Below, piece by piece: positions 22,737-51,165 of a stretch of DNA of 64,000 nt. Source of the stretch: Escherichia phage vB_VIPECOMC06. The translations under genes and the position numbers were made by a program. The first letter of the stretch is position 1, and each line of letters begins with the position of its first letter. The notes beneath the pieces were generated by a model. It did not search any database. It was not told the origin of the DNA and saw only the letters and a list, made by a program, of their open reading frames with translations. Location of the stretch: the sequence record PQ416618.1, one strand, 5' to 3'.

Positions 22737-24550
22737 AAATTGAAAAAGAAATTGAAGGATTAATTCATAAAACTAATAAAGATCTTTTGAACGAGAATGC
22801 TAATAAAGATTCTCGTGTTTTTCCAACTCAACGGGACCTTATGGCTGGTATTGTGTCTAAGCACATTGCCAAAAATATGGTCCCGTCTTTTATTATGAAA
22901 GCACATGAAAGCGGAATTATCCATTTCCATGATATTGATTATTCCCCTGCTCTTCCATTTACTAATTGTTGTTTAGTAGATTTAAAGGGAATGCTTGAAA
23001 ATGGGTTTAAGCTAGGTAATGCTCAAATTGAAACGCCTAAATCTATCGGTGTTGCTACTGCAATTATGGCACAAATTACCGCACAGGTTGCTTCCCATCA
23101 ATATGGCGGAACGACTTTTGCTAATGTAGATAAAGTACTTTCTCCTTATGTTAAACGCACCTATGCAAAACATATTGAGGATGCAGAAAAATGGCAAATC
23201 GCTGATGCGTTGAATTATGCCCAATCTAAAACAGAAAAAGACGTATACGATGCATTTCAAGCTTATGAGTATGAAGTAAATACTCTTTTTAGCTCAAACG
23301 GTCAAACGCCTTTTGTAACAATTACATTTGGTACTGGAACTGACTGGACTGAACGAATTATTCAGAAGGCAATTCTTAAAAACCGCATTAAAGGCCTTGG
23401 TCGTGATGGAATAACTCCTATTTTCCCTAAACTTGTTATGTTCGTTGAAGAGGGTGTCAATCTTTATAAAGACGACCCGAACTACGATATTAAGCAGCTT
23501 GCTCTAGAGTGTGCAAGCAAAAGAATGTATCCTGATATTATTTCAGTTAAGAACAATAAAGCTATCACCGGTTCATCTATTCCTGTTTCTCCAATGGGTT
23601 GTCGTAGTTTCTTGAGTGTATGGAAAGATTCGACAGGTAATGAAATTCTTGATGGGCGTAATAATCTTGGTGTTGTAACACTGAATCTTCCTCGTATTGC
23701 GTTAGATTCTTATATTGGAACACAGTTCAATGAACAAAAATTTACTGAATTGTTCAATGAGCGAATGGATCTGTGTTTTGAAGCATTGATGTGTAGAATT
23801 AGTTCCTTAAAAGGAGTTAAAGCTACTGTTGCTCCTATTCTTTACCAAGAAGGTGCATTTGGGGTCCGTCTTAAACCTGATGATGATATAATTGAGTTAT
23901 TTAAAAACGGTAGAAGTTCAGTGTCCTTAGGATACATTGGAATTCACGAATTGAATATTCTTGTCGGACGTGATATTGGACAGGAAATTTTGACTAAAAT
24001 GAATGCTCGTCTTAAGCAGTGGACTGAAAGAACCGGTTTTGCTTTTAGCTTGTATTCTACTCCTGCTGAAAACCTGTGCTATCGATTCTGTAAACTTGAT
24101 ACTGAGAAATATGGAAGGGTAAAAGATGTTACTGATAAAGGCTGGTACACTAATAGTTTCCACGTTTCGGTAGAAGAAAATATTACTCCGTTTGAAAAGA
24201 TTTCTCGCGAAGCCCCATATCATTTCATTGCGACTGGCGGACACATTTCTTATGTTGAACTTCCTGATATGAAAAATAACCTAAAAGGTCTTGAGGCTGT
24301 CTGGGATTATGCTGCGCAACATTTAGATTATTTTGGTGTTAATATGCCGGTAGATAAATGTTTTACGTGTGGAAGTACTCATGAAATGACTCCTACTGAA
24401 AACGGATTTGTTTGTTCTATTTGTGGAGAAACTGATCCTAAAAAGATGAACACAATAAGAAGAACTTGTGGTTATTTGGGAAATCCGAATGAACGCGGAT
24501 TTAATCTCGGCAAAAATAAAGAAATCATGCATAGGGTTAAACACCAATGA
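22733..24550 (+). CDS. nrdD: anaerobic ribonucleoside-triphosphate reductase (class III)
   Basis: 605 aa; C-terminal Zn ribbon CFTCGS..CSICG and glycyl radical motif RRTCGYLG; uninterrupted (no intron). Confidence 0.95.
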   Translation: MKIEKEIEGLIHKTNKDLLNENANKDSRVFPTQRDLMAGIVSKHIAKNMVPSFIMKAHESGIIHFHDIDYSPALPFTNCCLVDLKGMLENGFKLGNAQIETPKSIGVATAIMAQITAQVASHQYGGTTFANVDKVLSPYVKRTYAKHIEDAEKWQIADALNYAQSKTEKDVYDAFQAYEYEVNTLFSSNGQTPFVTITFGTGTDWTERIIQKAILKNRIKGLGRDGITPIFPKLVMFVEEGVNLYKDDPNYDIKQLALECASKRMYPDIISVKNNKAITGSSIPVSPMGCRSFLSVWKDSTGNEILDGRNNLGVVTLNLPRIALDSYIGTQFNEQKFTELFNERMDLCFEALMCRISSLKGVKATVAPILYQEGAFGVRLKPDDDIIELFKNGRSSVSLGYIGIHELNILVGRDIGQEILTKMNARLKQWTERTGFAFSLYSTPAENLCYRFCKLDTEKYGRVKDVTDKGWYTNSFHVSVEENITPFEKISREAPYHFIATGGHISYVELPDMKNNLKGLEAVWDYAAQHLDYFGVNMPVDKCFTCGSTHEMTPTENGFVCSICGETDPKKMNTIRRTCGYLGNPNERGFNLGKNKEIMHRVKHQ

Positions 24551-25017
24551 ATTATGATAGATTTTATCCTTGCGATTTTGTGAATGGCCCTGGTTGCAGG
24601 GTCGTTCTTTTCGTTACAGGTTGTTTGCATAAATGCGAAGGGTGTTATAATAAATCAACATGGAACGCTAGAAATGGTATTCCATTCACGGGTGAAACAC
24701 TAGAGCAATTAATTGAATGTTTGAATAATGATTATATAGAAGGATTAACTATAACTGGAGGAGACCCTCTCTATCCTGATAACCGAGATGATGTTCATTG
24801 CATTGCTCAAACAGTAAAAAATCTTTATCCCAATAAAAGCATTTGGTTGTGGACAGGGTACAAGTTTGAAGATATTAAACAACTAGAAATGCTTAAATAT
24901 GTTGATGTTATTATTGATGGGAAGTATGAGAAAAATCTTCCGACTAAAAAGCTGTGGCGAGGATCAGATAATCAGCGACTTTGGTCAAATACCGATGGGG
25001 TGTGGAAACATGATTAA
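24547..25017 (+). CDS. nrdG: anaerobic RNR activating enzyme (radical SAM)
   Basis: N-terminal Cys-rich radical-SAM-type region (FVTGCLHKCEGCYNK); ATGA coupled to nrdD. Confidence 0.9.
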   Translation: MNYDRFYPCDFVNGPGCRVVLFVTGCLHKCEGCYNKSTWNARNGIPFTGETLEQLIECLNNDYIEGLTITGGDPLYPDNRDDVHCIAQTVKNLYPNKSIWLWTGYKFEDIKQLEMLKYVDVIIDGKYEKNLPTKKLWRGSDNQRLWSNTDGVWKHD

Positions 25018-36462: not shown

Positions 36463-39174
36463 ATGAAAGAATTTTACTTAACGGTTGAACAGATTGGTGA
36501 TTCAATTTTTGAACGTTACATCGATTCTAATGGCCGTGAACGTACTCGTGAAGTAGAATATAAACCATCACTGTTTGCTCATTGTCCAGAAAGTCAGGCT
36601 ACGAAATATTTCGATATCTACGGTAAGCCGTGTACTCGTAAGTTGTTCGCCAATATGCGTGATGCCTCCCAATGGATTAAACGCATGGAAGATATCGGAC
36701 TTGAAGCACTTGGCATGGACGATTTCAAATTGGCGTATTTGTCTGACACTTATAACTATGAAATCAAATACGACCATACAAAAATTCGTGTGGCTAACTT
36801 CGACATCGAAGTAACATCTCCAGATGGGTTCCCTGAGCCGGCACAAGCAAAACATCCTATTGATGCTATCACCCATTATGACTCAATTGACGACAGGTTC
36901 TACGTATTTGATCTATTGAATTCTCCATATGGTAATGTAGAAGAATGGTCTATCGAAATTGCGGCTAAGCTTCAAGAACAAGGTGGTGATGAAGTTCCAT
37001 CTGAAATTATCGATAAAATCATTTATATGCCGTTCGATAACGAAAAAGAATTGTTGATGGAATATCTCAACTTCTGGCAACAGAAAACTCCTGTCATTTT
37101 GACTGGATGGAACGTTGAGTCATTTGATATTCCATATGTGTATAACCGAATCAAGAATATTTTTGGCGAATCTACTGCGAAACGTTTATCACCACATCGT
37201 AAAACTCGTGTTAAAGTTATCGAAAACATGTATGGTTCTCGTGAAATCATTACATTGTTCGGTATCTCTGTTCTTGATTACATTGACCTTTACAAAAAAT
37301 TCTCTTTTACCAATCAACCGTCATATTCCCTGGATTACATTTCAGAATTTGAATTGAACGTTGGTAAACTGAAATATGACGGCCCTATTTCTAAGCTTCG
37401 TGAAAGCAATCACCAACGATATATTTCTTATAACATTATCGACGTGTATCGTGTATTGCAAATTGATGCTAAGCGTCAGTTCATCAACTTGAGTTTGGAC
37501 ATGGGTTATTATGCTAAAATTCAGATTCAATCTGTGTTTAGCCCAATTAAAACATGGGATGCTATTATTTTTAATAGCCTTAAAGAGCAGAACAAGGTGA
37601 TTCCACAAGGTCGTTCTCATCCGGTTCAACCTTATCCTGGCGCTTTTGTTAAGGAACCTATTCCAAATCGATACAAATATGTAATGAGTTTCGACCTTAC
37701 ATCTCTGTATCCAAGTATTATTCGCCAAGTGAATATTAGCCCAGAAACAATAGCAGGAACGTTTAAAGTAGCTCCATTGCATGATTATATTAACGCTGTT
37801 GCTGAACGTCCTTCTGATGTGTACAGTTGTTCTCCTAACGGCATGATGTATTATAAAGACCGTGACGGTGTTGTTCCAACTGAAATCACTAAGGTCTTTA
37901 ATCAACGTAAAGAACATAAAGGTTACATGCTTGCAGCTCAACGTAATGGTGAAATAATTAAAGAGGCATTGCATAATCCTAATCTTTCTGTTGACGAACC
38001 ATTAGATGTTGATTATCGTTTCGACTTCAGTGATGAGATTAAAGAAAAGATTAAAAAGTTGTCTGCTAAATCTCTTAATGAAATGTTGTTTAGAGCTCAA
38101 CGTACTGAAGTTGCAGGTATGACTGCCCAAATTAACCGTAAATTGCTCATCAACTCGCTTTATGGTGCGCTTGGCAACGTTTGGTTCCGTTATTACGATT
38201 TGCGTAATGCTACTGCAATCACAACATTTGGTCAAATGGCTTTACAGTGGATTGAACGTAAAGTTAATGAATATCTGAATGAAGTTTGTGGCACAGAAGG
38301 TGAAGCTTTCGTTCTTTATGGTGATACAGACTCTATTTACGTATCTGCCGATAAAATTATCGATAAGGTTGGTGAATCTAAATTCCGTGATACCAACCAT
38401 TGGGTAGACTTCTTAGATAAGTTTGCACGTGAACGTATGGAACCAGCTATTGATAGAGGTTTCCGTGAAATGTGTGAATACATGAACAATAAACAACACT
38501 TAATGTTCATGGACCGAGAAGCTATCGCTGGGCCTCCACTCGGTTCTAAAGGTATTGGCGGATTCTGGACCGGTAAGAAACGTTATGCATTAAACGTGTG
38601 GGATATGGAAGGTACTCGTTACGCTGAGCCTAAACTCAAAATCATGGGTCTAGAGACTCAGAAATCTTCGACTCCTAAAGCAGTACAGAAAGCTCTTAAA
38701 GAATGTATTCGTCGTATGCTTCAAGAAGGTGAAGAATCATTACAAGAATATTTTAAAGAGTTTGAAAAAGAATTCCGTCAATTGAATTATATTAGCATCG
38801 CGTCGGTATCTTCTGCGAATAACATTGCTAAATATGATGTAGGTGGATTCCCTGGTCCCAAATGCCCGTTCCATATTCGTGGAATTCTGACGTATAACCG
38901 GGCTATCAAAGGTAATATCGATGCACCGCAAGTTGTAGAAGGTGAAAAAGTATATGTTCTGCCTTTACGTGAAGGAAACCCATTCGGTGATAAATGTATC
39001 GCATGGCCTTCCGGTACTGAAATCACAGATTTAATTAAAGACGACGTACTTCATTGGATGGACTACACTGTTCTCCTTGAGAAGACATTTATTAAACCAC
39101 TTGAAGGATTCACATCAGCAGCGAAACTCGAGTATGAGAAGAAAGCATCTCTGTTCGATATGTTCGATTTTTGA
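36463..39174 (+). CDS. 43: DNA polymerase (family B) gp43
   Basis: 903 aa; exo motifs FDIEV and YNIIDV, polymerase motifs DLTSLYPSII, KLLINSLYG, YGDTDS; length and N-terminus typical of the RB69-type enzyme. Confidence 0.97.
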   Translation: MKEFYLTVEQIGDSIFERYIDSNGRERTREVEYKPSLFAHCPESQATKYFDIYGKPCTRKLFANMRDASQWIKRMEDIGLEALGMDDFKLAYLSDTYNYEIKYDHTKIRVANFDIEVTSPDGFPEPAQAKHPIDAITHYDSIDDRFYVFDLLNSPYGNVEEWSIEIAAKLQEQGGDEVPSEIIDKIIYMPFDNEKELLMEYLNFWQQKTPVILTGWNVESFDIPYVYNRIKNIFGESTAKRLSPHRKTRVKVIENMYGSREIITLFGISVLDYIDLYKKFSFTNQPSYSLDYISEFELNVGKLKYDGPISKLRESNHQRYISYNIIDVYRVLQIDAKRQFINLSLDMGYYAKIQIQSVFSPIKTWDAIIFNSLKEQNKVIPQGRSHPVQPYPGAFVKEPIPNRYKYVMSFDLTSLYPSIIRQVNISPETIAGTFKVAPLHDYINAVAERPSDVYSCSPNGMMYYKDRDGVVPTEITKVFNQRKEHKGYMLAAQRNGEIIKEALHNPNLSVDEPLDVDYRFDFSDEIKEKIKKLSAKSLNEMLFRAQRTEVAGMTAQINRKLLINSLYGALGNVWFRYYDLRNATAITTFGQMALQWIERKVNEYLNEVCGTEGEAFVLYGDTDSIYVSADKIIDKVGESKFRDTNHWVDFLDKFARERMEPAIDRGFREMCEYMNNKQHLMFMDREAIAGPPLGSKGIGGFWTGKKRYALNVWDMEGTRYAEPKLKIMGLETQKSSTPKAVQKALKECIRRMLQEGEESLQEYFKEFEKEFRQLNYISIASVSSANNIAKYDVGGFPGPKCPFHIRGILTYNRAIKGNIDAPQVVEGEKVYVLPLREGNPFGDKCIAWPSGTEITDLIKDDVLHWMDYTVLLEKTFIKPLEGFTSAAKLEYEKKASLFDMFDF

Positions 39175-39214
39175 TATAATGTCATGGACGGTAAACTAAT
39201 TAAATGAGAGAAAT

Positions 39215-39850
39215 ATGAAAACTACTCCTATTACTATCGCTATTGACGCAATCATAAAACAAGCTTCTTCTTTGGCCGCTATGGCCAAAGTAATTAGTCA
39301 AAACCCTGCTCGTTATAATGCTATTCTAGAAACTCTTCGACGCCCAGGACTTAGTAATTATGAAAGCCGAGTAATTATTACAGGTGTTGGTAAGAATGCT
39401 AATATTGCAACTAAAGCTTCTGAGACATTTGCTTCACTCGGTATCCCGAGTATGTACTTGAACACAGGGCATTATTCTCATGGTGATGCAGGATTCATTG
39501 CGCCTAATGATGTGTTGATTCATATTAGTCGTTCTGGTAAAACTGAAGAAATGATAGGTGTGGCTAAGCATCTTAAAATGATTCGTCCGAACGTCAAACA
39601 GATTCTGTTGCATTGTAACCCTGACATTCCACAAGAATACGAAGCTCTTTTTGATTATACGTTCTGTACAGGCATCGCAGTAGAGGTTGATGAGAATTCT
39701 CTGGCTCCGACCATGTCCACTACATTGTTGTTAGCGCTTATCGATACGTTTGCTATCAACCTTTCGTCTGAACGTGGATTTACCTCTAATGACTTCCTTA
39801 AGTTCCACCCTGGCGGTGCACTAGGTGCCATGTTACGAGGCGAACAATGA
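39215..39850 (+). CDS. SIS-domain sugar-phosphate isomerase (KdsD/GutQ-like arabinose-5-phosphate isomerase, no CBS domains)
   Basis: SIS core VIITGVGKNANIATKASETFASLGIPSMYLNTGHYSHGDAGFIAPNDVLIHISRSGKTEEM parallels the KdsD N-terminal domain. Confidence 0.7.
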   Translation: MKTTPITIAIDAIIKQASSLAAMAKVISQNPARYNAILETLRRPGLSNYESRVIITGVGKNANIATKASETFASLGIPSMYLNTGHYSHGDAGFIAPNDVLIHISRSGKTEEMIGVAKHLKMIRPNVKQILLHCNPDIPQEYEALFDYTFCTGIAVEVDENSLAPTMSTTLLLALIDTFAINLSSERGFTSNDFLKFHPGGALGAMLRGEQ

Positions 39851-39990
39851 AAGCAATAACAATAGGACTTTTACTATTGATGCTTGTCATGACTATCTAC
39901 TGGAGCTTAACGGCTCCAGTATTGATTCCAACACTTGTAATCGGATGGATTATGATTGGACTACAAGCAAAGTATGAATGCTTTAACTAG
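39847..39990 (+). CDS. small hydrophobic peptide (47 aa)
   Basis: ATGA-coupled to the SIS gene; two hydrophobic segments; not in ORF track (<60 aa). Confidence 0.35.
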   Translation: MKAITIGLLLLMLVMTIYWSLTAPVLIPTLVIGWIMIGLQAKYECFN

Positions 39991-40003
39991 AATAGTGTAC
40001 AAT
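39979..40003 (+). promoter_or_regulatory. putative MotA-dependent middle promoter for the nucleotidyltransferase/kinase gene
   Basis: MotA-box TGCTTTA (39979-39985) with TACAAT 12 bp downstream. Confidence 0.4.
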
Positions 40004-40031
40004 ACACCTACTTACCAATGAGGACCACAAC

Positions 40032-41717
40032 ATGAAAAAAGCTGTTATTCTTGGTGCTGGATTGGCAACTCGTTTGTATCCAATAACGCATCATATTCCT
40101 AAGGTGCTTGTTAACTATAAACAAGACACTATTCTGAGCAATTTGTATACAATTTATTCTGACCTTGGCGCAGATGAAATTATTGTAGTAGTTCATTCAA
40201 AATTTGCTGAAACTGTTCGAGCTTATTGTGAGCAAGAAGGGTTCAATGTGACTATTCGTACAGTTGATGAAGCGTATGGTTCTGCTTATGCTCTTGCTAA
40301 ATTACACAAAGATTTAGACGGCCATAATGTAATTGTTAACTGGTGTGATATTATTCCTGATTTCGGTTCATGGTCTTGGAATGTTAACGCAATCTATGTT
40401 AAGGGTGACGAATGTCGATATAATTTCGACGGTGAAAATATCACTAACGTAGGTTCAACAGGTGGTAATGTTGTAGGAATTTATCAGTTCAAAGACTGGG
40501 AATTCTATATGGGTTCTACTGATGAGGAAATTCATGAATACTGCAAAGGACGTGATTTCGTAGAATTCCTTTACGGCAGCGCATTCAATAAATCAGAGCT
40601 TATGAATCTAATTGATTTAGGTGATATGCCTAAACTTGAAAAAGCTCATGAAGTTCGTGAACTTAATCGTAGTTTTAATGCAGTTGAAATTGGTGAAGAA
40701 ACTGTAACTAAATTCGCATTAACCGAACAGGGCCGAGCTCTTCAGAAAGATGAGATTTCATGGTATCTTAAAGTGAAATCAGATTCAGTTCCTCAGTTAG
40801 TTTCTGTTAATGAAAATAACTTTGAAATGGAACGCATTAAAGGTAAGCCGGCATTTGAATATATTAAATCCAAATCAAGTCTTGCTCGTCCACAAATTGT
40901 TGATGCAATTTTAGACGCACTGAAATTCAGCACAGACACTTATTTTGTAAGTCCTGAAACTGTTCGTCGTGATTTCACTAAAGAATTCTATACGAAAGTT
41001 ATTGATCGTTGTGAAAGTATTCAACCATTGATTGATTCATTTGGTAAAATCACACATGTAAACTACACTAAGATTGGGCGTCTGAAGCCAATGTTGAAAC
41101 AAGCTTTAGAACACCTTATTCGTTATCATAACCGTTCTCAGGGACAGTACTCTGTTATTCATGGTGACCCGAACTTCAGTAATACTATGATTACTGATAA
41201 CGGTGAAGTCAAGTTTATCGACCCTCGTGGATATTTTGGCGAAACCAAGATTTACGGGCCAAAATTGTATGATGAAGCTAAAGTGCTTTATGCTGTTTCA
41301 GGTTATGATGAATTCAACGCTAATCCGACCTGGGGGCAGTTTACTATTGATGAAACAACTTGTAATGTGACTATTAACATCAATCCATTAGTTTACAAAT
41401 ATGGAAAGATGAGTTCGTTTAACGAGTATCATCATTTGGCAGTGGCAATTATCTGGATTGCATTAGGTGGTTATTTCAAGAATAATCCACTTAAAGCGGT
41501 AGCCGCATATTATAAAGGTATGGAACTTCTGACTAAGCAATTACGTAACATGGGCCGTGTACTTCAGGACGGCTCTATTAGTTATGACGTAGCAGAACCT
41601 GTAACGGCTACTCTGATTACAAAAAATCCTGGTAAATGGGTACTAACTGATAAAGAAACTGGTGTTTCCTATCGTCCAATCGGTGGCGATATCACTCATC
41701 AATGGGAACGAATCTAA
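40032..41717 (+). CDS. bifunctional sugar-1-phosphate nucleotidyltransferase / anomeric sugar kinase (561 aa)
   Basis: N-terminal RmlA/MurU-type motif AVILGAGLATRLYP; C-terminal APH/choline-kinase-type catalytic loop VIHGDPNFSN and FIDPRGYFG. Confidence 0.7.
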   Translation: MKKAVILGAGLATRLYPITHHIPKVLVNYKQDTILSNLYTIYSDLGADEIIVVVHSKFAETVRAYCEQEGFNVTIRTVDEAYGSAYALAKLHKDLDGHNVIVNWCDIIPDFGSWSWNVNAIYVKGDECRYNFDGENITNVGSTGGNVVGIYQFKDWEFYMGSTDEEIHEYCKGRDFVEFLYGSAFNKSELMNLIDLGDMPKLEKAHEVRELNRSFNAVEIGEETVTKFALTEQGRALQKDEISWYLKVKSDSVPQLVSVNENNFEMERIKGKPAFEYIKSKSSLARPQIVDAILDALKFSTDTYFVSPETVRRDFTKEFYTKVIDRCESIQPLIDSFGKITHVNYTKIGRLKPMLKQALEHLIRYHNRSQGQYSVIHGDPNFSNTMITDNGEVKFIDPRGYFGETKIYGPKLYDEAKVLYAVSGYDEFNANPTWGQFTIDETTCNVTININPLVYKYGKMSSFNEYHHLAVAIIWIALGGYFKNNPLKAVAAYYKGMELLTKQLRNMGRVLQDGSISYDVAEPVTATLITKNPGKWVLTDKETGVSYRPIGGDITHQWERI

Positions 41718-42103
41718 TGCACCGTGTAAAAAACATGCTTAATCTTTGTTTTGATGTCGATGATTGTATAACAGAGTGGAATAACAATCGTGATTACGTG
41801 AACTTCAAACCAGACGTCGAAATGGTATCTGCCATTAATGCTCTGTATGATGCAGGGCATACCATAACGCTTTACACTGCTCGCGGTATGAAGTCAGTCG
41901 GTCCTGGTCGTATAGCAATCGACATTCTCCCAAGTCTGATTCAGAACTTGGCAAACATTGGCTTGAAGTACCATAATTTGCTAACACATAAACCAGTATA
42001 TGATTGGATTATCGACGACAAAGCTATGCGTCCTGACGAATTCAAAGCTCTTATGAATAAAGGCGAATTCGAAACATTTAAATCATATAAACCGAATCTA
42101 TAA
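41717..42103 (+). CDS. HAD-superfamily phosphatase (KdsC-like)
   Basis: HAD motif I FDVDDCITE, motif II TLYTARG, motif III K (THKPVYD), motif IV IIDDKA; start uncertain (41717 or 41735). Confidence 0.65.
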   Translation: MHRVKNMLNLCFDVDDCITEWNNNRDYVNFKPDVEMVSAINALYDAGHTITLYTARGMKSVGPGRIAIDILPSLIQNLANIGLKYHNLLTHKPVYDWIIDDKAMRPDEFKALMNKGEFETFKSYKPNL

Positions 42104-42157
42104 TAATTTAAGTAAGACCTGCAAAAACCATCGCAACAATTAACGCGAGATGCAAAA

Positions 42158-43318
42158 ATGAATACCTTTAAAATCGGAACGAATTTTGATTTAGCTCTTC
42201 TTGATAAAATCGTAGAGCTCAATAAAACTTATCCTAATAGCTTGATAAACGAAGTATACGGCTCTACAAGAGAAATGGCTTTTGTAGCAGCCAGACCTGA
42301 TTTTAGGCTTCCTGACGTTGACAAAAAGATGTTAGAAGATTACGTTAAACGTTGTAACGAATTAGGTATTTGCTTTAACTATACACTCAACACGATAAAT
42401 CCTGGTTCAAAAAGAGAACTAGTTGAGTGGAAGAAGAAAGCTATTCAGGATTATGTTCAGTATCTTTGGTCAATAGGCGTATGGCGTATTACTATCGCTA
42501 ACCCTGTTGTTATGGAAATTGTTCGTGAAGTCAATAAAGACATTGAGATTGAAGTTTCAACAATTCTACATGTCGATGCTGTAACTCAAATCAAATACTT
42601 GCATGACCAGTATAATATCAAAAAGGTCTGCTGTGGAATTCATAAGAACCGTTCAGTTTCTTTCCTGAAGCGTGCAGCAGAGTTTTGCAATAAGAACAAT
42701 ATAATATTTGAAGTTCTTGTAAATGAGTTCTGTTCTAATGCTGGTAAAGGGTATACAACACATTGTAGTTATCGTGACTCTTGCTATATTTTCCATAGCA
42801 CCGATGTTACAGTAGATGATGCCAAATCCTTAAATGGATATCCAATGCAACACTGCATTAAAGCTCGTGATACAGACCCATTTAACTGGTTGAGAACTCG
42901 TTTTGTTCGTCCTCAAGATTTGAAACTTTATAATGATATTGGTATCACTCAATTTAAAGTTTCTGGACGTACAGGTAGCACCGACTACATTTTGAAAGTT
43001 CTTGAAGCTTATGCTTCTGAAAAGTTTGAAGGTAATTTGTTAGAACTGTGGAAGCCTTTAGAGACTATTTTCACTCTTGAAAACGAAACTGAGTTTTCAC
43101 ATACGGTAAATATTGAAACCTCTTTGTTAGATGGCTTTTTAGAAAAAAGGTGGTTCAAACATCCAGATTTCGATTGTGCTAATGAAATCTGTGGGACGAC
43201 GTGTACATATTGTGAAAGATATTATAAACGTCAGTTATCTAAAAACGGGTTATCAGAAAATTCTATATCTATTATTGATATAACTAACTCTGATGACGCT
43301 TTGAGGTACCCAGAATGA
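42158..43318 (+). CDS. Cys-rich enzyme of unknown function (386 aa)
   Basis: Cys cluster EFCSNAGKGYTTHCSYRDSC and C-terminal CANEICGTTCTYC; weak resemblance to the TIM-barrel peptidase-U32 (RlhA/UbiU) pattern; part of the sugar-nucleotide cassette. Confidence 0.55.
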   Translation: MNTFKIGTNFDLALLDKIVELNKTYPNSLINEVYGSTREMAFVAARPDFRLPDVDKKMLEDYVKRCNELGICFNYTLNTINPGSKRELVEWKKKAIQDYVQYLWSIGVWRITIANPVVMEIVREVNKDIEIEVSTILHVDAVTQIKYLHDQYNIKKVCCGIHKNRSVSFLKRAAEFCNKNNIIFEVLVNEFCSNAGKGYTTHCSYRDSCYIFHSTDVTVDDAKSLNGYPMQHCIKARDTDPFNWLRTRFVRPQDLKLYNDIGITQFKVSGRTGSTDYILKVLEAYASEKFEGNLLELWKPLETIFTLENETEFSHTVNIETSLLDGFLEKRWFKHPDFDCANEICGTTCTYCERYYKRQLSKNGLSENSISIIDITNSDDALRYPE

Positions 43319-43458
43319 TTTCTAGAAAAACTTTTAACCACCAACTTAATGAAGAGATTTTGACTATTAAAATTAACAGCAACGAACAAATTCTTAAACA
43401 GGCCCATAAGGGCCTGTTTGAAACTAAAGCGGCTAAAGTGATTAAAGAACCTAACTAG
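43315..43458 (+). CDS. hypothetical small ORF (47 aa)
   Basis: ATGA-coupled to upstream gene; contains CAGGCCC-ATAA-GGGCCTG hairpin; may be noncoding. Confidence 0.2.
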   Translation: MISRKTFNHQLNEEILTIKINSNEQILKQAHKGLFETKAAKVIKEPN

Positions 43459-43591
43459 AATACTACGCTGATGCATTTCTTCATAGTGTTCTTGGAAGTA
43501 TCGATGCCGAAGCTTTACGTTATATCAACATCGCTAAGAAATTCAAATAAGCTTTATGAATTGAGTATATAATAACTGTATTGAGGTAAAC

Positions 43592-44308
43592 ATGGGAAAA
43601 CATAACACAATGAAATATATTAAAGCCGCAGATTTTCAATCCGCATTTAAAGCAGTCAATCGTGAAATTTTAGAAAACCCGGAATTCGTAACTGATTCTC
43701 GTATTGGACGTTGTAATGAAATTGGGTCTATGACAGTAGTTGTTGACACTCCATCTTCATTCAAAATGACCGATCCACGTATTAACCGCATCTCTTATGA
43801 ATATGCTGAAGATTTCTGGAAGTTTATGATTTCTGGTGGTACTGATGCAGAAGAAGCATTTAAGGCATATCCTAACGTTGCTAAATTTATTTCTAAACCT
43901 AAATCAGACGCTTTGCCTGCAAACTTCAACACTTTCTATGGTCCACGAATTGCGGCCCAGTTACCAGCTCTTTTAAAAGAACTTAAAGAGAAACCTAACT
44001 CCCGAAGAGTTGTGTTCCAAATTCTTGAAAGTTCAGATCAGGCTTTGCTTGATTCAGACGAAACACTTGAATATCCATGTACTGACTCAGTGACTTATTA
44101 TATTCGTGATGGTAAGCTTTATACCCACTGTCATATGCGTTCACAGAACTGTGCTGTTGTTATGCAGTTGGATTTTTATCTCCAAGGAAAATTACTTCAT
44201 TATATCGCTAAAGAATGTGGTGTAGAAGTTGGTGATTATACTCATACCATGGTAAGTGCCCATGTGTTTGAACGTGATTTTGATTATGTTAAAGGATTCC
44301 TTGACTAA
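43592..44308 (+). CDS. 42: thymidylate-synthase-fold pyrimidine hydroxymethylase (dCMP hydroxymethylase-like)
   Basis: TS-family pattern NSRR, catalytic Cys in YPCTDSVTYYIRDGK, MRSQN; position of gene 42 between 43 and uvsX; N-terminal half differs from T4 gp42 as recalled. Confidence 0.6.
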   Translation: MGKHNTMKYIKAADFQSAFKAVNREILENPEFVTDSRIGRCNEIGSMTVVVDTPSSFKMTDPRINRISYEYAEDFWKFMISGGTDAEEAFKAYPNVAKFISKPKSDALPANFNTFYGPRIAAQLPALLKELKEKPNSRRVVFQILESSDQALLDSDETLEYPCTDSVTYYIRDGKLYTHCHMRSQNCAVVMQLDFYLQGKLLHYIAKECGVEVGDYTHTMVSAHVFERDFDYVKGFLD

Positions 44309-45207
44309 TGGCTATTTTCCGCGTACCTATCTTGAGTATGCGGTCTTATGAAACTGGACAGTATGCTATCCTTAAGGATGGCAACTTCCAACTTCATTTG
44401 CACCGTGCTAATCCAGGTGATGTGATTACATATCCACGTAATGCATCTGATATTAAAGAATGCGAACGTCTTTTCCCAGAATTTAAGTTTGTTCCATTAT
44501 GGTATAAAGATAACGCGTATAACACTCGTAAATATTTCTGGTCTGAAAATGAATTTGTGGTTGATTCATTAATTGATTATTATGATTGTGATTTTCTAAT
44601 CACAGATATCACTGGATATGACGGCGCTTTTGATGTGGAATTCAATTTCAATATCACTGCAGACCCTAATAAACCACGTTTTTATATTGACGAATTCTTA
44701 AAAACCGACATGTTGTCTGTTAATCGTTCACTTCAAACTACTGTGTTGAATGAACGTCAAAAAGAAGTGCTGGTTAACGCAGGTGCAGATGGTAATAAGA
44801 TTATCGTAACCCAGAAAGTTATACGTCCTTCCATCATGCAGCGTCTTGTAGGTGATTTGGCTCCTATTCATCTAGATGGTATTTTTCATCCATTTCGAAT
44901 TAGTGACCCATGCTATCGTTTTGAACAAGTGGTTGAATGCGCAATTCAATTAGGCCAACCGCTTTATATAACCGATCCAAATAATAGCTTCGACAGAAAT
45001 AAGTATCCTGAAGAAGCGCTGATTCGAATTTTTAATCCAACTAAAACTGAGTACTATCAAATTCTTAAAGGACGTCCGAAGATTCAATATTTCGAAAATC
45101 CTGAAGAAGTATTCCATCCAGGTCTTGGTGAGTTCATCTACTTTAATGCTTTAATTTCTTCGCCGTATAATATACCTAAATATGAAGATGTCGTAATCGA
45201 GGAATAA
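44308..45207 (+). CDS. hypothetical protein in the beta-gt slot (299 aa); candidate DNA sugar transferase
   Basis: TAATG-coupled to gene 42; occupies the locus where T4 has beta-glucosyltransferase; no motif recognised. Confidence 0.5.
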   Translation: MAIFRVPILSMRSYETGQYAILKDGNFQLHLHRANPGDVITYPRNASDIKECERLFPEFKFVPLWYKDNAYNTRKYFWSENEFVVDSLIDYYDCDFLITDITGYDGAFDVEFNFNITADPNKPRFYIDEFLKTDMLSVNRSLQTTVLNERQKEVLVNAGADGNKIIVTQKVIRPSIMQRLVGDLAPIHLDGIFHPFRISDPCYRFEQVVECAIQLGQPLYITDPNNSFDRNKYPEEALIRIFNPTKTEYYQILKGRPKIQYFENPEEVFHPGLGEFIYFNALISSPYNIPKYEDVVIEE

Positions 45208-45208
45208 A

Positions 45209-45757
45209 ATGGCTAAAATTATTTTAGTAGATGGCCCGGATAATGCCGGTAAAACAACTTTCATTAATGACATAATGGAAATTAGTGAAAGATATGTAAA
45301 GATTGATTTCCCTAAACGAACAGTTGATGGACGTTTCGATGTTAAGTCTCGAAATGAAGTTGGCTGTTTCGAAACGATGTTGAATTATTTAGACCCTACT
45401 AAGATTTATCTGTTAGACCGTGGATATATTAGTAACTGGGTTTATGGACGTATTCGACAAGATGCGGACTCGGTTCTTGACGTTTATGAACAGGATTATG
45501 TTCGTCTTTGCCAAAACCATGATGTGTTCACAATTATTTTAACACGTAACGAAATGACTGAAAGTTTTGAAGACGACCTTATTACTTTGTCTTCATTCGG
45601 TTTTAATACAGTCATTTCATATTTTGAAGAGTTTGCAATTCATAACAAAATTCAAACGTATCAATTACTTAATCATGATGGTGCTAACAAAGTTATAGGA
45701 TTTAATGCAAGCGAACGTAATAATTTGATTACAGAAATTATCAAATGGGCTCGTTAA
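45209..45757 (+). CDS. P-loop nucleoside/nucleotide kinase-like protein (182 aa)
   Basis: Walker A ILVDGPDNAGKTT, LLDRGY; resembles dNK/TMK-type kinases, not T4 gp1. Confidence 0.55.
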   Translation: MAKIILVDGPDNAGKTTFINDIMEISERYVKIDFPKRTVDGRFDVKSRNEVGCFETMLNYLDPTKIYLLDRGYISNWVYGRIRQDADSVLDVYEQDYVRLCQNHDVFTIILTRNEMTESFEDDLITLSSFGFNTVISYFEEFAIHNKIQTYQLLNHDGANKVIGFNASERNNLITEIIKWAR

Positions 45758-45856
45758 GAGCCTGTTTAAAGTTTTAAATGCTGTATAACCGTTAGTATAT
45801 AATCGTCTTATCTTTTAAACATGAGTAAAATATAATGATGCCTATGGAAAAATACA

Positions 45857-47029
45857 ATGTCTGATTTAAAATCTCGTCTGATTAAAGCTTCTACTTCTAA
45901 AATGACTGCAGACTTGACTAAGTCTAAGCTGTTTAATAATCGTGATGAAGTCCCTACTCGTATTCCGATGTTGAATATTGCATTAGGTGGTGCACTGAAT
46001 GCCGGGTTGCAATCAGGCTTAACTATTTTTGCTGCTCCTTCTAAACACTTTAAAACGTTGTTTGGACTGACCATGGTTGCAGCGTATATGAAGAAATATA
46101 AAGATGCAATTTGTTTGTTCTATGATTCAGAATTTGGTGCTTCAGAATCTTATTTTCGTTCAATGGGTGTTGATTTAGACCGTGTAGTTCATACCCCGAT
46201 TCAATCTGTCGAACAACTTAAAGTTGATATGACTAATCAGCTTGACGCGATTGAACGCGGTGATAAAGTTATTATCTTTATCGATTCAATCGGTAATACT
46301 GCATCTAAGAAAGAAACCGAAGATGCGTTGAACGAGAAAGTTGTAGGTGATATGTCTCGTGCTAAGGCACTTAAATCTCTGTTCCGCATTGTGACTCCTT
46401 ATCTGACTATTAAAGATATTCCATGTGTTGCAATCAACCACACAGCAATGGAAATCGGCGGACTATATCCTAAAGAGATTATGGGTGGTGGTACAGGTAT
46501 TCTTTACTCTGCTAACACTGTGTTCTTTATCTCTAAACGTCAGGTTAAAGAAGGTACAGAATTGACTGGTTATGACTTCACACTGAAAGCAGAAAAATCT
46601 CGTACAGTTAAAGAGAAATCTACTTTCCCGATCACGGTTAATTTTGATGGCGGTATTGACCCATTCAGTGGCTTGTTAGAAATGGCAACTGAAATTGGTT
46701 TTGTAGTTAAGCCTAAAGCTGGTTGGTATGCTCGCGAATTCCTTGACGAAGAAACAGGCGAAATGATTCGTGAAGAAAAATCATGGCGTGCTAAAGCTAC
46801 TGATTGTGTAGAATTCTGGGGGCCGTTGTTTAAACATAAGCCTTTCCGTGACGCAATTGAAACTAAATATAAACTAGGTGCTATCTCTTCTATTAAAGAA
46901 GTTGATGATGCTGTTAACGACCTTATTAATTGCAAAGCAACAACTAAAGTTCCGGTTAAAACTTCTGATGCTCCGTCTGCAGCAGATATAGAAAACGACC
47001 TTGACGAAATGGAAGATTTCGATGAATAA
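45857..47029 (+). CDS. uvsX: RecA-like recombinase UvsX
   Basis: Walker A region FAAPSKHFKT, 390 aa, acidic C-terminus DLDEMEDFDE; order uvsX-40-41. Confidence 0.95.
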   Translation: MSDLKSRLIKASTSKMTADLTKSKLFNNRDEVPTRIPMLNIALGGALNAGLQSGLTIFAAPSKHFKTLFGLTMVAAYMKKYKDAICLFYDSEFGASESYFRSMGVDLDRVVHTPIQSVEQLKVDMTNQLDAIERGDKVIIFIDSIGNTASKKETEDALNEKVVGDMSRAKALKSLFRIVTPYLTIKDIPCVAINHTAMEIGGLYPKEIMGGGTGILYSANTVFFISKRQVKEGTELTGYDFTLKAEKSRTVKEKSTFPITVNFDGGIDPFSGLLEMATEIGFVVKPKAGWYAREFLDEETGEMIREEKSWRAKATDCVEFWGPLFKHKPFRDAIETKYKLGAISSIKEVDDAVNDLINCKATTKVPVKTSDAPSAADIENDLDEMEDFDE

Positions 47030-50219: not shown

Positions 50220-50513
50220 ATGAAAAAGTTATCATTGGCAGCAATCTTACTTGCAGTATCATGTGCACCGGCTCCAGTTACGGCAGGTTATGATAAAGAC
50301 CTCTGTGAGTGGTCAATGACTGCAAATCAAGAAGATGTTGAACAACAAATCTTCTCTGATATCATGAACATCACTAAACGAGACCGTCCTAATATGGTTA
50401 ATAAAGTTGTTGAACAACTTAAGTCTGGCGGTATCATGCAGTACAATTATGTTTTGTATTGTGACCCTAATTTCGATAACAAAGATATCGTAACCGAAAT
50501 CACAGGTGAATAA
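50220..50513 (+). CDS. sp: spackle-like periplasmic protein (97 aa)
   Basis: Signal peptide MKKLSLAAILLAVSCAPAPVTAG; mature part GYDKDLCEWSMT...YNYVLYCD; size and locus (41-61 interval) as T4 sp. Confidence 0.45.
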   Translation: MKKLSLAAILLAVSCAPAPVTAGYDKDLCEWSMTANQEDVEQQIFSDIMNITKRDRPNMVNKVVEQLKSGGIMQYNYVLYCDPNFDNKDIVTEITGE

Positions 50514-50514
50514 T

Positions 50515-51165
50515 ATGATTTATTATATGCACAAAAATGCGCCATTTAAATATGGTAAATTTCCTAATGCACAATGTTATAATATAACGCCGAACGAAAA
50601 TAATAACGGATATCATATTGGTGTAATTTTTGTAATTGTTAAAGATAACGAAATCGTTGCCTGGGCAGATTTTAAAGGTACAACGTATGATGTTAATCCA
50701 GTGCCTTTCACATATTACAATATAATGGATTTGGCATATGATTATAATTGGTTTAATCACGACGCGTTGGCTCATATTGAAGGTGTAGGATTTGACATCT
50801 CTTATTCTAGCTATTCATTATGTCCTATGAGCCGAGCTCACGGTAAAGATGCATCATATCTTTCATTTCGGAAACGTGTAAACTTCAAACGTAGTACAGA
50901 GTATGTCGGTGGACTCTTTGTTAAAGATAATAAAATAACCCGTATTAGTTATCCTTTAAGTGTAGGTCAAAAAGATGTTGATGTTGATTTAGACTTAACC
51001 GAAAATAACATTAATCATATTGCTTCTGTATATTTTGATATCGATGAAAAAATTGTAGTGTGTGGATACGAATTACCACCTGAAGAAAAGGCCGAAACAA
51101 TTGAAGTCGAATTAGAAATTTCTGTTGATGACCAAATATTTAATGCATTTATGAATCGAGGTTAA
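50515..51165 (+). CDS. hypothetical protein (~216 aa)
   Basis: ATG at 50515 (track start is a GTG overlapping the upstream stop). Confidence 0.45.
   Translation: MIYYMHKNAPFKYGKFPNAQCYNITPNENNNGYHIGVIFVIVKDNEIVAWADFKGTTYDVNPVPFTYYNIMDLAYDYNWFNHDALAHIEGVGFDISYSSYSLCPMSRAHGKDASYLSFRKRVNFKRSTEYVGGLFVKDNKITRISYPLSVGQKDVDVDLDLTENNINHIASVYFDIDEKIVVCGYELPPEEKAETIEVELEISVDDQIFNAFMNRG

What the first reader, a model, noticed from the sequence alone, without database searches (positions are those of the whole stretch)
42158..43318. 386-aa Cys-rich enzyme of unknown function ending the cassette
The protein has a central Cys cluster (EFCSNAGKGYTTHCSYRDSC) and a C-terminal CX4CX3CX2C motif. The central pattern weakly resembles TIM-barrel peptidase-U32 proteins (RlhA, TrhP, UbiU/V), which are Fe-S-dependent, oxygen-independent hydroxylases of nucleic acids and quinones. 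It could equally be a mutase, epimerase or the transferase itself.
Basis: inference. Interest (0 to 1): 0.75.

Follow-up and report, generated by a model that had tools for sequence, protein, structure and literature searches.

The report
Probable oxygen-free cytosine hydroxylase of phage
This RB69-type phage gene encodes a U32-family protein that most likely makes the 5-hydroxycytosine precursor of the phage's sugar-coated DNA without needing oxygen, using the metabolite prephenate, which would complement the phage's known oxygen-requiring enzyme for that step.

Summary

New evidence here:
- In 56 related phage records a chorismate mutase, the prephenate-forming enzyme, directly follows the U32 gene, and the pair stays together when the cassette is rearranged.
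- In distant uncultured phages a DAHP-synthase/chorismate-mutase fusion sits beside it.
- In 36 such loci the U32 gene accompanies the cassette's glycosyltransferase (24) and kinase (26), while a thyA-family gene appears once.

Best reading (about 0.55): an O2-independent, prephenate-dependent C5-hydroxylase that makes 5-hydroxy-dCMP, paralleling the flavin/O2 enzyme gp48.

Caveats: there is no biochemistry. This phage lacks the mutase. Some enterobacterial relatives lack U32. Two key papers could not be read.

The parts
42158..43318 (+). Gene 50 (RB69 gp50 orthologue), a 386-aa U32-family protein. Proposed O2-independent, prephenate-dependent C5-hydroxylase.
   Evidence: ORF confirmed. It is 99-100% identical to Mosigvirus proteins, including HY126 and RB69. 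AF2 model: pLDDT 92.5, pTM 0.91.
42437..43015 (+). Peptidase_U32 (PF01136) domain, residues 94-286, the core of a TIM barrel.
42710..42796 (+). U32 signature region, residues 185-213: E185, E190, C192, C203, C209, Y210, H213. It carries a family-specific insertion that holds one extra invariant Cys.
   Evidence: The MAFFT register pairs E185/C192/C209 with RlhA E161/C169/C176 and TrhP E162/C170/C177. The hhalign register pairs E190/C203/C209 with them. Those residues are essential in RlhA and TrhP (PMC5727448, PMC6599085). Invariance.
42854..42856 (+). Codon of C233, the candidate fourth ligand of a [4Fe-4S] cluster.
   Evidence: Invariant in 71/71 and 40/40 homologues. It sits in 'GYPMQHC', which resembles UbiU 'GYPTLC' (C232) by eye, but MAFFT did not align the two Cys.
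43175..43213 (+). C-terminal CX4CX3CX2C cluster (C340, C345, C349, C352), a second metal site (Zn or Fe-S).
   Evidence: Invariant in 71 homologues and kept in 35-37 of 40 divergent ones. It is analogous to the essential C-terminal Cys of RlhA (C580, C611), but the spacing differs.
43315..43550 (+). Gene 49 (RB69 ORF049c homologue). Its start overlaps the gene 50 stop (ATGA). Here a 4-bp deletion after position 43452 frameshifts it, leaving a 47-aa ORF (43315-43458). It occupies the slot between U32 and thyA where relatives carry chorismate mutase, but it is not itself a chorismate mutase.
   Evidence: Alignment with RB69. No CM_2 or NCBIfam hit. hhalign against the phage CM family gives probability 0.2%. 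In Yersinia phages it coexists with the CM.
43592..44308 (+). gp48 orthologue, a thymidylate-synthase homologue. This is the experimentally shown flavin- and O2-dependent 5-hydroxy-dCMP synthase.
   Evidence: Pfam Thymidylat_synt. 99.2% identical to RB69 gp48. Function and 18O2 labelling in PMC13326640.
44308..45207 (+). gp46:47 orthologue, the DNA arabinosyltransferase 1. It is one intact ORF here.
   Evidence: phrog_3891. Assignment in PMC13326640. Homologues accompany U32 in 24 of 36 distant loci.
45209..45757 (+). gp45 orthologue, a thymidylate-kinase-like nucleotide kinase.
   Evidence: phrog_761. PMC13326640 Table 1. Homologues accompany U32 in 26 of 36 distant loci.
39215..42103 (+). 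Sugar-activation half of the cassette: SIS arabinose-5-phosphate isomerase (39215-39850), the AfhE-like kinase/nucleotidyltransferase (40032-41717, one intact ORF here) and the HAD phosphatase (41702-42103).
   Evidence: Pfam SIS and NTP_transferase plus kinase hits. phrog_1238. Roles from PMC13326640.

Best explanation
Gene 50 encodes a U32-family, probably iron-sulfur, enzyme that hydroxylates C5 of cytosine without molecular oxygen.

The substrate is most likely the mononucleotide dCMP, giving 5-hydroxy-dCMP. The oxygen would come from prephenate, which is released as phenylpyruvate plus CO2, and the electrons would pass out through the metal centres. The product enters the same route as that of the flavin/O2 enzyme gp48: phosphorylation, incorporation by the phage polymerase, then arabinosylation by gp46:47 and gp3.

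The phage would therefore have two ways to make 5-hydroxycytosine, one aerobic and one anaerobic. E. coli does the same for ho5U in tRNA (TrhO and TrhP) and for ubiquinone (UbiI/H/F and UbiU/V).

Shown here:
- family membership and fold
- conserved essential residues
- linkage to chorismate mutase and DAHP synthase in relatives
- substitution for the thyA-type enzyme in the cassettes of distant phages

Inferred:
- hydroxylase activity
- prephenate as the oxygen donor
- iron-sulfur binding
- oxygen independence
- dCMP rather than DNA as the substrate (about 60:40)

This window's phage has no chorismate mutase of its own, so it would depend on host PheA/TyrA for prephenate.

For: 2. Conserved essential residues. 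The Glu and two Cys shown by mutagenesis to be essential in RlhA and TrhP have invariant counterparts in gp50. A C-terminal Cys cluster is also conserved, as in RlhA.

3. Family precedent. Every U32 protein with a genetically defined role (RlhA, TrhP, UbiU/V) is needed for prephenate-dependent hydroxylation. For TrhP and UbiU/V the reaction was shown to work without O2. Two of them act at pyrimidine C5 (PMC5727448, PMC6599085, PMC10990095). C5 hydroxylation of cytosine is the only hydroxylation in this pathway.

4. Chorismate mutase next door. A chorismate mutase (Pfam CM_2, 40.9 bits against 27) directly follows the U32 gene in 56 phage records from about 15 host genera. Stop and start codons overlap, residues matching the EcCM active site are invariant, and the pair stays together when the cassette is rearranged in Thanatos-1.

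5. The same link in distant phages. In viral contigs whose U32 is only 34-50% identical, a CM or a DAHP-synthase/CM fusion (Pfam 88.7 and 71.8 bits) lies within two genes in 8 of 36 loci.

6. Substitution for the thyA-type enzyme. In those 36 loci U32 co-occurs with the gp46:47-type glycosyltransferase (24), the gp45-type kinase (26) and the AfhE-like enzyme (17). A thyA-family gene appears once, and that one looks like a canonical ThyA. All 15 Straboviridae loci have the gp48 type. Seven loci have U32, GT and kinase without any sugar-synthesis gene.

7. Oxygen requirement of the known enzyme. gp48 needs O2 (18O2 labelling). This phage also encodes the strictly anaerobic reductase NrdD/NrdG and a dCTPase, so under anoxia it would need another source of 5-hydroxy-dCMP.

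8. Selection. dN/dS is 0.04-0.08.
Against: - No U32 hydroxylase has yet been reconstituted in vitro, and nothing biochemical is known for gp50.
- The third and fourth canonical [4Fe-4S] ligands (TrhP C193/C197, UbiU C193/C232) lie in a segment that gp50 lacks. The alternative ligands C203 and C233 are inferred, because the model coordinates could not be inspected.
- The Mosigvirus group, including this window, has no chorismate mutase. Gene 49 in that slot is unrelated to it and is frameshifted here.
- U32 is absent from all Acinetobacter 5hoC phages listed or examined, but also from E. coli Dhakaviruses such as IME281, so it is accessory.
- U32 presence does not track phage nrdD/nrdG.
- The absence of a thyA-type gene in distant phages was tested only within 10 kb either side of U32.
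- The authors who characterised the pathway labelled gp50 'sugar or heterocycle reductase'.
Confidence: 0.55

Rival explanations
1. gp50 is an electron-transfer or reductase partner of the flavin-dependent gp48. For example, it could regenerate reduced flavin ('heterocycle reductase') using its Fe-S centres, and it would not itself be a hydroxylase.
For: It lies one gene from gp48 in all Straboviridae loci. It has probable redox metal sites. The published Table 1 label is 'sugar or heterocycle reductase'.
Against: In 35 of 36 distant loci U32 is present with no thyA-type gene within 10 kb. gp48 plus a kinase suffices for 5hodC in E. coli without gp50. DLP3 and Dhakaviruses run the pathway without it. 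This reading does not explain the chorismate mutase and DAHP synthase linkage. No U32 protein is known to be a flavin reductase.
Confidence: 0.1
2. gp50 hydroxylates cytosine in polymeric DNA after replication rather than free dCMP. The chemistry and the oxygen donor would be the same, but the substrate different, as for its RNA-modifying relatives RlhA and TrhP.
For: The closest characterised relatives act on polynucleotides. The conserved C-terminal Cys4 element could be a nucleic-acid-binding zinc knuckle.
Against: gp50 lacks the extra domains of RlhA (DUF3656) and TrhP (C-terminal motif). The phage degrades dCTP and replaces all C, which requires a modified nucleotide before replication. 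The neighbours of distant homologues are nucleotide-level enzymes: dCMP deaminase, dN and dNMP kinases, NT5C and NUDIX.
Confidence: 0.15
3. gp50 modifies RNA, for example ho5U34 in phage or host tRNA, or ho5C in rRNA. It would be a TrhP/RlhA-like translation factor that is only co-located with the DNA-modification genes.
For: Homology to RlhA. T4-like phages carry tRNA genes and reprogram translation (established knowledge).
Against: It is embedded in the DNA-modification cassette with overlapping stop and start codons. It co-occurs with the DNA glycosyltransferase and nucleotide kinase across very distant phages. It lacks the RNA-substrate domains. E. coli already has TrhP and RlhA.
Confidence: 0.06
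4. gp50 acts on the sugar branch as a reductase, epimerase or mutase that shapes the pentose donor. This covers the first reader's alternatives and the 'sugar reductase' label.
For: It lies next to the arabinose-activation genes. A DAHP_synth_1-family protein, a family that also includes Kdo8P synthase (which uses arabinose 5-phosphate), sits beside it in L005.
Against: The route from Ru5P to UDP-Araf is fully accounted for by gp55, gp52:53 and gp51. Seven distant loci have U32, GT and kinase with no sugar-synthesis genes. The DAHP_synth_1 proteins are fused to chorismate mutase, which marks them as shikimate-pathway enzymes. U32 is kept in Thanatos, whose sugar is reported to differ.
Confidence: 0.06
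5. gp50 is a protease or collagenase, as most GenBank records annotate it.
For: The historical family name, and reported collagenolytic activity of PrtC and HP0169 (quoted in PMC5727448). Records are annotated 'peptidase'.
Against: No catalytic mechanism for proteolysis is known in this family. The genomic context is nucleotide metabolism. The conserved residues are Cys and Glu of the hydroxylase-type motif.
Confidence: 0.02

Closest known systems
RlhA (YdcP), the E. coli 23S rRNA 5-hydroxycytidine C2501 synthase (U32 family)
   Same: It has the same Pfam domain, with profile homology at E 1.3e-5. The essential Glu and two Cys of its U32 motif have invariant counterparts in gp50. Both carry additional conserved C-terminal cysteines. 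The proposed chemistry is the same: C5 hydroxylation of cytosine that depends on prephenate and Fe-S assembly.
   Different: RlhA is 653 aa, has DUF3656 and acts on one rRNA base in 50S precursors. gp50 is 386 aa, has no DUF3656, shares only about 18% identity, and has a 10-residue insertion with an extra Cys inside the motif. Its C-terminal Cys spacing differs (CX4CX3CX2C). Its presumed substrate is a DNA precursor.
TrhP/TrhO dual pathway for ho5U34 in tRNA
   Same: The logic matches: a prephenate-dependent U32 route that works without O2, alongside an unrelated O2-dependent route to the same 5-hydroxypyrimidine. In the phage these would be gp50 and gp48.
   Different: TrhP has a C-terminal domain that gp50 lacks, and the hhalign match is weak (probability 10%). 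The O2-dependent partner is a rhodanese there, but a flavin-dependent thymidylate-synthase homologue here.
UbiU/UbiV, the O2-independent ubiquinone hydroxylases
   Same: They are small U32 proteins that act on a small molecule. They have [4Fe-4S] clusters on four Cys. Prephenate was proven to be the oxygen donor, and the chorismate mutase domain of PheA suffices to supply it. UbiU C169 and C176 align with gp50 C192 and C209.
   Different: They work as a heterodimer with the accessory protein UbiT on a lipid substrate. gp50 scores 19 bits against the UbiU equivalog model, whose cutoff is 440. The third and fourth Cys ligands are not alignable.
gp48-type 5-hydroxy-dCMP synthase (RB69 gp48, DLP3 gp80, and the homologous HY126 enzyme)
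   Same: The proposed product (5hodCMP) and the pathway are the same. It is the neighbouring gene in Straboviridae.
   Different: The fold is unrelated (thymidylate synthase superfamily). It uses a flavin cofactor, and its oxygen comes from O2.
MK0906 (PDB 5d88), the U32 'peptidase' domain of Methanopyrus kandleri
   Different: It is only 14% identical, covers only the barrel (247 aa) and has no known function. gp50 adds about 100 C-terminal residues that include the Cys4 element.

Membership tests
Peptidase U32 / U32 hydroxylase family (PF01136) | Match to the Pfam family model above its curated gathering score | tested here: met
   42.4 bits against cutoff 22.4, E 6.3e-11, residues 94-286. 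The homologues carry a precomputed PF01136 hit.
Peptidase U32 / U32 hydroxylase family (PF01136) | TIM-barrel fold of the solved U32 domain (5d88) | tested here: met
Peptidase U32 / U32 hydroxylase family (PF01136) | The motif Glu and two Cys shown to be essential in RlhA (E161, C169, C176) and TrhP (E162, C170, C177) | tested here: met
   Invariant counterparts exist under both alignment registers: E185/C192/C209 or E190/C203/C209. For conservation. Which register is correct remains unresolved.
Peptidase U32 / U32 hydroxylase family (PF01136) | Four-cysteine [4Fe-4S] ligand set as in UbiU and UbiV (positions recalled from memory as UbiU C169/C176/C193/C232; the read paper, confirms only that four Cys coordinate the cluster and that C176A abolishes it) | tested here: inconclusive
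   Two of the four positions align. The segment holding the other two is absent from gp50. Invariant C203 and C233 could substitute.
Peptidase U32 / U32 hydroxylase family (PF01136) | Bound iron-sulfur cluster | not testable with these tools
   This needs anaerobic purification with UV-vis or EPR spectroscopy and iron/sulfide analysis.
Peptidase U32 / U32 hydroxylase family (PF01136) | Dependence on prephenate | tested here: inconclusive
   The support is indirect. Chorismate mutase is adjacent in 56 relatives, and a DAHP-synthase/CM fusion is adjacent in distant phages. This window itself has no chorismate mutase. A direct test needs genetics or isotope labelling.
RlhA subfamily | Co-occurrence of the U32 motif with DUF3656 | tested here: not met
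   PF01136 is the only Pfam hit in gp50.
RlhA subfamily | Conserved, essential C-terminal cysteines | tested here: inconclusive
   gp50 has an invariant C-terminal Cys4. MAFFT pairs it with RlhA C580/C611/C614, but the spacing differs and hhalign does not extend that far.
TrhP subfamily | TrhP-type C-terminal motif and full-length similarity | tested here: not met
   hhalign gives probability 10% over the N-terminal part only. There is no further Pfam domain.
UbiU equivalog (NCBIfam NF047963) | Score above the curated equivalog cutoff | tested here: not met
   19.4 bits against cutoff 440.
AroQ chorismate mutase (for gene 49, 43315-43550) | Match to CM_2 or the phage CM family, with the catalytic Arg, Lys, Glu and Gln residues | tested here: not met
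   There is no CM_2 or NCBIfam hit. hhalign probability is 0.2%. It belongs to a different PHROG. None of the invariant CM residues is present.

The most novel reading that the evidence does not exclude
Phages carry a portable, oxygen-independent pyrimidine C5-hydroxylation module made of a gp50-type U32 enzyme with chorismate mutase, and sometimes DAHP synthase to boost prephenate supply. It would be the first prephenate-dependent hydroxylase acting on DNA building blocks. In many uncultured phages that have the glycosyltransferase and kinase but no thyA-type enzyme, it would be the only hydroxylase. In that case glycosylated 5-hydroxypyrimidine DNA would be considerably more widespread than predictions based on thymidylate-synthase signatures suggest. 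RB69-type phages would keep both routes so that they can replicate with fully modified DNA both with and without oxygen.
Probability: 0.4. Interest if true: 0.85.

Novelty: new variant of a known kind. Interest (0 to 1): 0.72.

Why it matters
The 5-hydroxycytosine pathway of RB69-type phages was worked out only in 2025-2026, and its hydroxylase needs O2. These phages live on gut Enterobacterales and replace every cytosine.

An oxygen-independent second hydroxylase would explain how they replicate in anoxic habitats. It would extend prephenate-dependent U32 chemistry from RNA and quinones to DNA precursors. It would also supply a small, soluble, single-substrate U32 enzyme for the in vitro reconstitution that the field still lacks.

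On the genomic side, it gives a marker (U32 with chorismate mutase, glycosyltransferase and kinase) for finding hypermodified DNA in uncultured phages that have no thymidylate-synthase-type enzyme. It also shows phages carrying shikimate-pathway genes to feed DNA modification.

Tried and rejected
1. Gene 49 as a decayed chorismate mutase: rejected. RB69 gp49 is an intact 79-aa protein with no CM homology, and it coexists with the CM in Yersinia phages. In this window it simply carries a 4-bp deletion.

2. U32 co-varying with the phage anaerobic ribonucleotide reductase: rejected. DLP3 and IME281 (no U32) lack nrdD/nrdG, but so do Entb_45 and LC53 (both with U32). EndoVII and gp55 served as positive controls.

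3. U32 absent only from phages of strict aerobes: only partly true. No Acinetobacter phage appears among the U32 hits that were listed or summarised by organism, and DLP3 lacks it, but E. coli Dhakaviruses lack it as well.

4. Sequence search of the PDB found nothing. The AFDB50 Foldseek library was unavailable.

5. Model coordinates are not exposed, so Cys-Cys distances could not be measured.

6. He et al. 2026 (Nat Chem Biol) and Mahler et al. 2025 (Cell Host Microbe) are not held. Whether they discuss this gene is unknown. Full-text searches combining U32, chorismate mutase or prephenate with phage found nothing relevant.

7. A conserved 204-aa neighbour of U32 in distant phages has no Pfam or PHROG match.
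Full report
**Observation.** The window is a T4-type phage of the RB69 group (Mosigvirus). Its region 39000-46000 is 98.4% identical to phage F2 and 97.8% to RB69. The flagged ORF is exactly as described: ATG at 42158, stop at 43316-43318, 386 codons. It contains E190-F-C192-X10-C203-X5-C209 and C340-X4-C345-X3-C349-X2-C352. It is the orthologue of RB69 gp50 (RB69ORF050c, NP_861740.1).

The gene is clearly functional. dN/dS is 0.037 against RB69 and 0.075 against Yersinia phage phiR1-RT. It is full-length in all 221 phage records that carry it, all at 80% identity or more.

It does not end the cassette. The gene order is polymerase, SIS isomerase (gp55), bifunctional kinase/nucleotidyltransferase (gp52:53), HAD phosphatase (gp51), gene 50, gene 49, thymidylate-synthase homologue (gp48), glycosyltransferase (gp46:47), kinase (gp45), then uvsX.

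**What the cassette does (literature).** Lee et al., NAR 2026 (PMC13326640), showed that RB69 DNA carries arabinosylated 5-hydroxycytosine, not hydroxymethylcytosine. gp48 makes 5-hydroxy-dCMP from dCMP. It co-purifies with a flavin and incorporates 18O from 18O2, and gp48 plus the dNMP kinase gp159 suffice in E. coli. gp55, gp52:53 and gp51 account for the route from Ru5P to UDP-arabinofuranose.

gp50 appears only in that paper's Table 1, as 'Sugar or heterocycle reductase' with fold hits to 5d88, and is never discussed. The Discussion notes that RlhA and TrhP/TrhO are other pyrimidine hydroxylation pathways, but does not connect them to gp50. Earlier papers record only a Pfam U32 hit (2006) and 'homologs among peptidases' (2021). 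Acinetobacter phage DLP3 runs the same pathway without any gp50 homologue.

**Family membership.**
- Pfam Peptidase_U32 scores 42.4 bits against a gathering cutoff of 22.4.
- A 71-sequence alignment gave an AlphaFold2 model with pLDDT 92.5 and pTM 0.91.
- Profile comparison with E. coli RlhA gives E 1.3e-5 over 205 columns. The match to TrhP is weak, and the UbiU equivalog model scores 19 bits against a cutoff of 440.

gp50 is therefore a U32 protein but belongs to none of the four E. coli subfamilies. A profile search of 1.84 billion representatives finds 481 at E <= 1e-30 and only 1,695 at E <= 0.001. This is a distinct, moderately large subfamily.

**Conserved residues.** Mutagenesis showed that E161, C169 and C176, plus the C-terminal C580 and C611, are essential in RlhA. 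It showed the same for E162, C170 and C177 in TrhP. In gp50 these correspond to E185/C192/C209 in the MAFFT alignment or to E190/C203/C209 in the hhalign alignment. All five of those gp50 residues are invariant or nearly so.

The motif holds a 10-residue insertion with one extra invariant Cys. Across 40 divergent representatives:
- C192 and C233 are kept in 40/40.
- C209 is Cys in 25 and His in 9.
- The four C-terminal Cys are kept in 35-37/40.
- C158 and C177 are dispensable.

This pattern fits two metal sites, C192/C203/C209/C233 and C340/C345/C349/C352. That is an inference. The canonical third and fourth ligands of UbiU and TrhP fall in a segment that gp50 lacks, and the model coordinates could not be inspected.

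**Chorismate mutase linkage (new).** In Enterobacter phage Entb_45 the gene that overlaps the U32 stop codon is a 79-aa chorismate mutase: Pfam CM_2 40.9 bits against cutoff 27, plus many NCBIfam CM models. tblastn finds this gene between U32 and the thyA homologue in 56 phage records. Their hosts include Klebsiella, Serratia, Yersinia, Enterobacter, Edwardsiella, Erwinia, Proteus, Pectobacterium, Providencia, Morganella, Kosakonia, Shewanella and E. coli.

The family keeps invariant R8, R25, K36, E49, S71 and Q75. By spacing these match the E. coli CM active-site residues R11', R28, K39, E52, S84 and Q88; the EcCM numbering is from my own memory. In LC53 the U32, CM and thyA genes overlap stop-to-start. 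In Shewanella phage Thanatos-1 the cassette is rearranged to thyA, GT, kinase, U32, CM, yet U32 and CM stay adjacent and overlapping.

Chorismate mutase makes prephenate. Prephenate is required for RlhA and TrhP function, and it is the proven oxygen donor of UbiU/V. Expressing the PheA CM domain alone restores each of these reactions.

**Distant phages (new).** A scan of IMG/VR returned 49 loci. I called ORFs, clustered the neighbours and searched with the window's own cassette proteins. All 15 Straboviridae loci have the gp48-type gene within 1-4 genes of U32.

Among 36 non-Straboviridae loci (U32 34-55% identical), homologues within 10 kb were:

| Gene near U32 | Loci (of 36) |
|---|---|
| gp45-type kinase | 26 |
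| gp46:47-type glycosyltransferase | 24 |
| AfhE-like enzyme | 17 |
| SIS isomerase | 10 |
| DAHP synthase | 8 |
| Chorismate mutase | 6 |
| thyA-family gene | 1 |

The glycosyltransferase was independently confirmed as phrog_3891. The single thyA-family gene resembles canonical ThyA (9e-124) much more than gp48 (8e-43).

The DAHP synthase is fused to a full-length chorismate mutase (Pfam 88.7 and 71.8 bits). That joins the first committed step of the shikimate pathway to the prephenate-forming step. Seven loci have U32, GT and kinase with no sugar-synthesis gene, which ties U32 to the base-acceptor side of the pathway.

Three further contexts from other assemblies show dCMP deaminase, thymidylate and dN kinases, UDG, NT5C, NUDIX and nucleoside deoxyribosyltransferase around the gene. 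The simplest reading is non-orthologous displacement: hydroxylase plus kinase plus glycosyltransferase, where the hydroxylase is either the thyA type or the U32 type, and RB69-like phages carry both.

**Mechanism proposed.** gp50 converts dCMP to 5-hydroxy-dCMP. Prephenate serves as the hydroxyl donor and is released as phenylpyruvate and CO2. The two electrons leave through the metal centres to an unknown acceptor, following the scheme proposed for UbiU/V. Kinases, the polymerase and the arabinosyltransferases then act as they do on the gp48 product.

The rationale is as follows:
- gp48 needs O2.
- This phage encodes NrdD/NrdG, the strictly anaerobic ribonucleotide reductase (569.6 and 162.4 bits), and a gp56-type dCTPase/dUTPase.
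- It replaces all cytosine.

Without O2, therefore, it needs another source of 5-hydroxy-dCMP. The E. coli precedents are TrhO/TrhP and UbiIHF/UbiUV. Whether the substrate is dCMP or DNA is unresolved. I favour dCMP because of the nucleotide-metabolism neighbours and the absence of RNA-type substrate domains.

**Evidence against, and limits.**
- No biochemistry exists for gp50, and no U32 hydroxylase has been reconstituted.
- Mosigviruses, including this window, have no chorismate mutase. The 79-aa gene 49 in that slot is unrelated (hhalign probability 0.2%, a different PHROG). It is frameshifted here by a 4-bp deletion after position 43452, so the phage would rely on host PheA/TyrA.
- U32 is accessory. 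345 phage records have a close gp48 homologue but only 221 have U32. DLP3 lacks it, no Acinetobacter phage shows among the U32 hits, and E. coli Dhakavirus IME281 lacks it too.
- The idea that U32 co-varies with phage nrdD/nrdG failed. Entb_45 and LC53 (with U32) lack these genes just as DLP3 and IME281 (without U32) do.
- The absence of a thyA-type gene in distant phages was tested only within 10 kb.
- He et al. 2026 and Mahler et al. 2025 could not be read, so prior discussion of this gene cannot be excluded. Full-text searches linking U32, prephenate or chorismate mutase to phages found nothing.

**Verdict.** The gene is known and annotated, and its U32 similarity has been on record since 2006, but its role is unassigned in the accessible literature.

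The best-supported explanation, at about 0.55 confidence, is a prephenate-dependent, oxygen-independent cytosine C5-hydroxylase. That would be a new variant of a known enzyme kind, acting for the first time in DNA hypermodification, and it is directly testable.

Noticed in passing
window 43315-43550: Gene 49 (RB69 ORF049c, 79 aa, phrog_8601, unknown function) has a 4-bp deletion after position 43452 relative to RB69. This leaves a 47-aa ORF. Phage PNJ-6 shows the same truncation. Across Mosigviruses gp49 varies much more (77-100% identity) than gp50 does (at least 98.7%).
   Followed up: yes
window 22733-25017: NrdD (605 aa) and NrdG (156 aa), the anaerobic ribonucleotide reductase and its activase, are present here. 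They are absent from the syntenic EndoVII-gp55 interval of DLP3, IME281 and Entb_45. LC53 retains only a 28-aa NrdG remnant (annotated as a 42-aa 'anaerobic NTP reductase' ORF), which points to repeated loss.
   Followed up: yes
window 40032-41717 and 44308-45207: The AfhE-like kinase/nucleotidyltransferase (561 aa) and the glycosyltransferase (299 aa) are each a single intact ORF here. This agrees with the published view that the RB69 reference splits (ORF052/053 and ORF046/047) are sequencing errors.
   Followed up: partly
L054:14056-14670 and 15 other loci (cluster 2): A conserved protein of about 204 aa with no Pfam or PHROG match lies next to the U32 gene in 16 of 36 distant viral loci, directly upstream of it in 8. 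It could be a partner subunit (compare UbiV or UbiT) or another pathway enzyme.
   Followed up: partly
L003:8001-14360 (ENA scaffold, 86 kb): A gp50-type U32 sits on what looks like a bacterial contig, with a Glu-Cys ligase, a MarR regulator and a dockerin/GH43 protein. Its neighbours include NT5C, an NMN transporter, a deoxynucleoside kinase, a radical SAM/SPASM protein, a second faint U32 paralogue and a nucleoside deoxyribosyltransferase-like gene. This may be a cellular or prophage nucleoside-modification island in an anaerobe.
   Followed up: no
L012:3078-3716 and L014:1930-2568: In Serratia phage LC53 and Yersinia phage phiR1-RT a segB-like homing endonuclease gene is inserted between the HAD phosphatase gene and the U32 gene.
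   Followed up: no
L010 (Klebsiella phage Clarke_MM3): This cassette variant has U32 (89% identical) but neither the SIS isomerase nor the chorismate mutase, and the kinase gene has moved to just upstream of U32.
   Followed up: no
window 50506-51165: A 219-aa ORF matches Pfam AdfA (anti-DarT factor A) at 402 bits. It is an anti-defence gene just downstream of the helicase gene.
   Followed up: no
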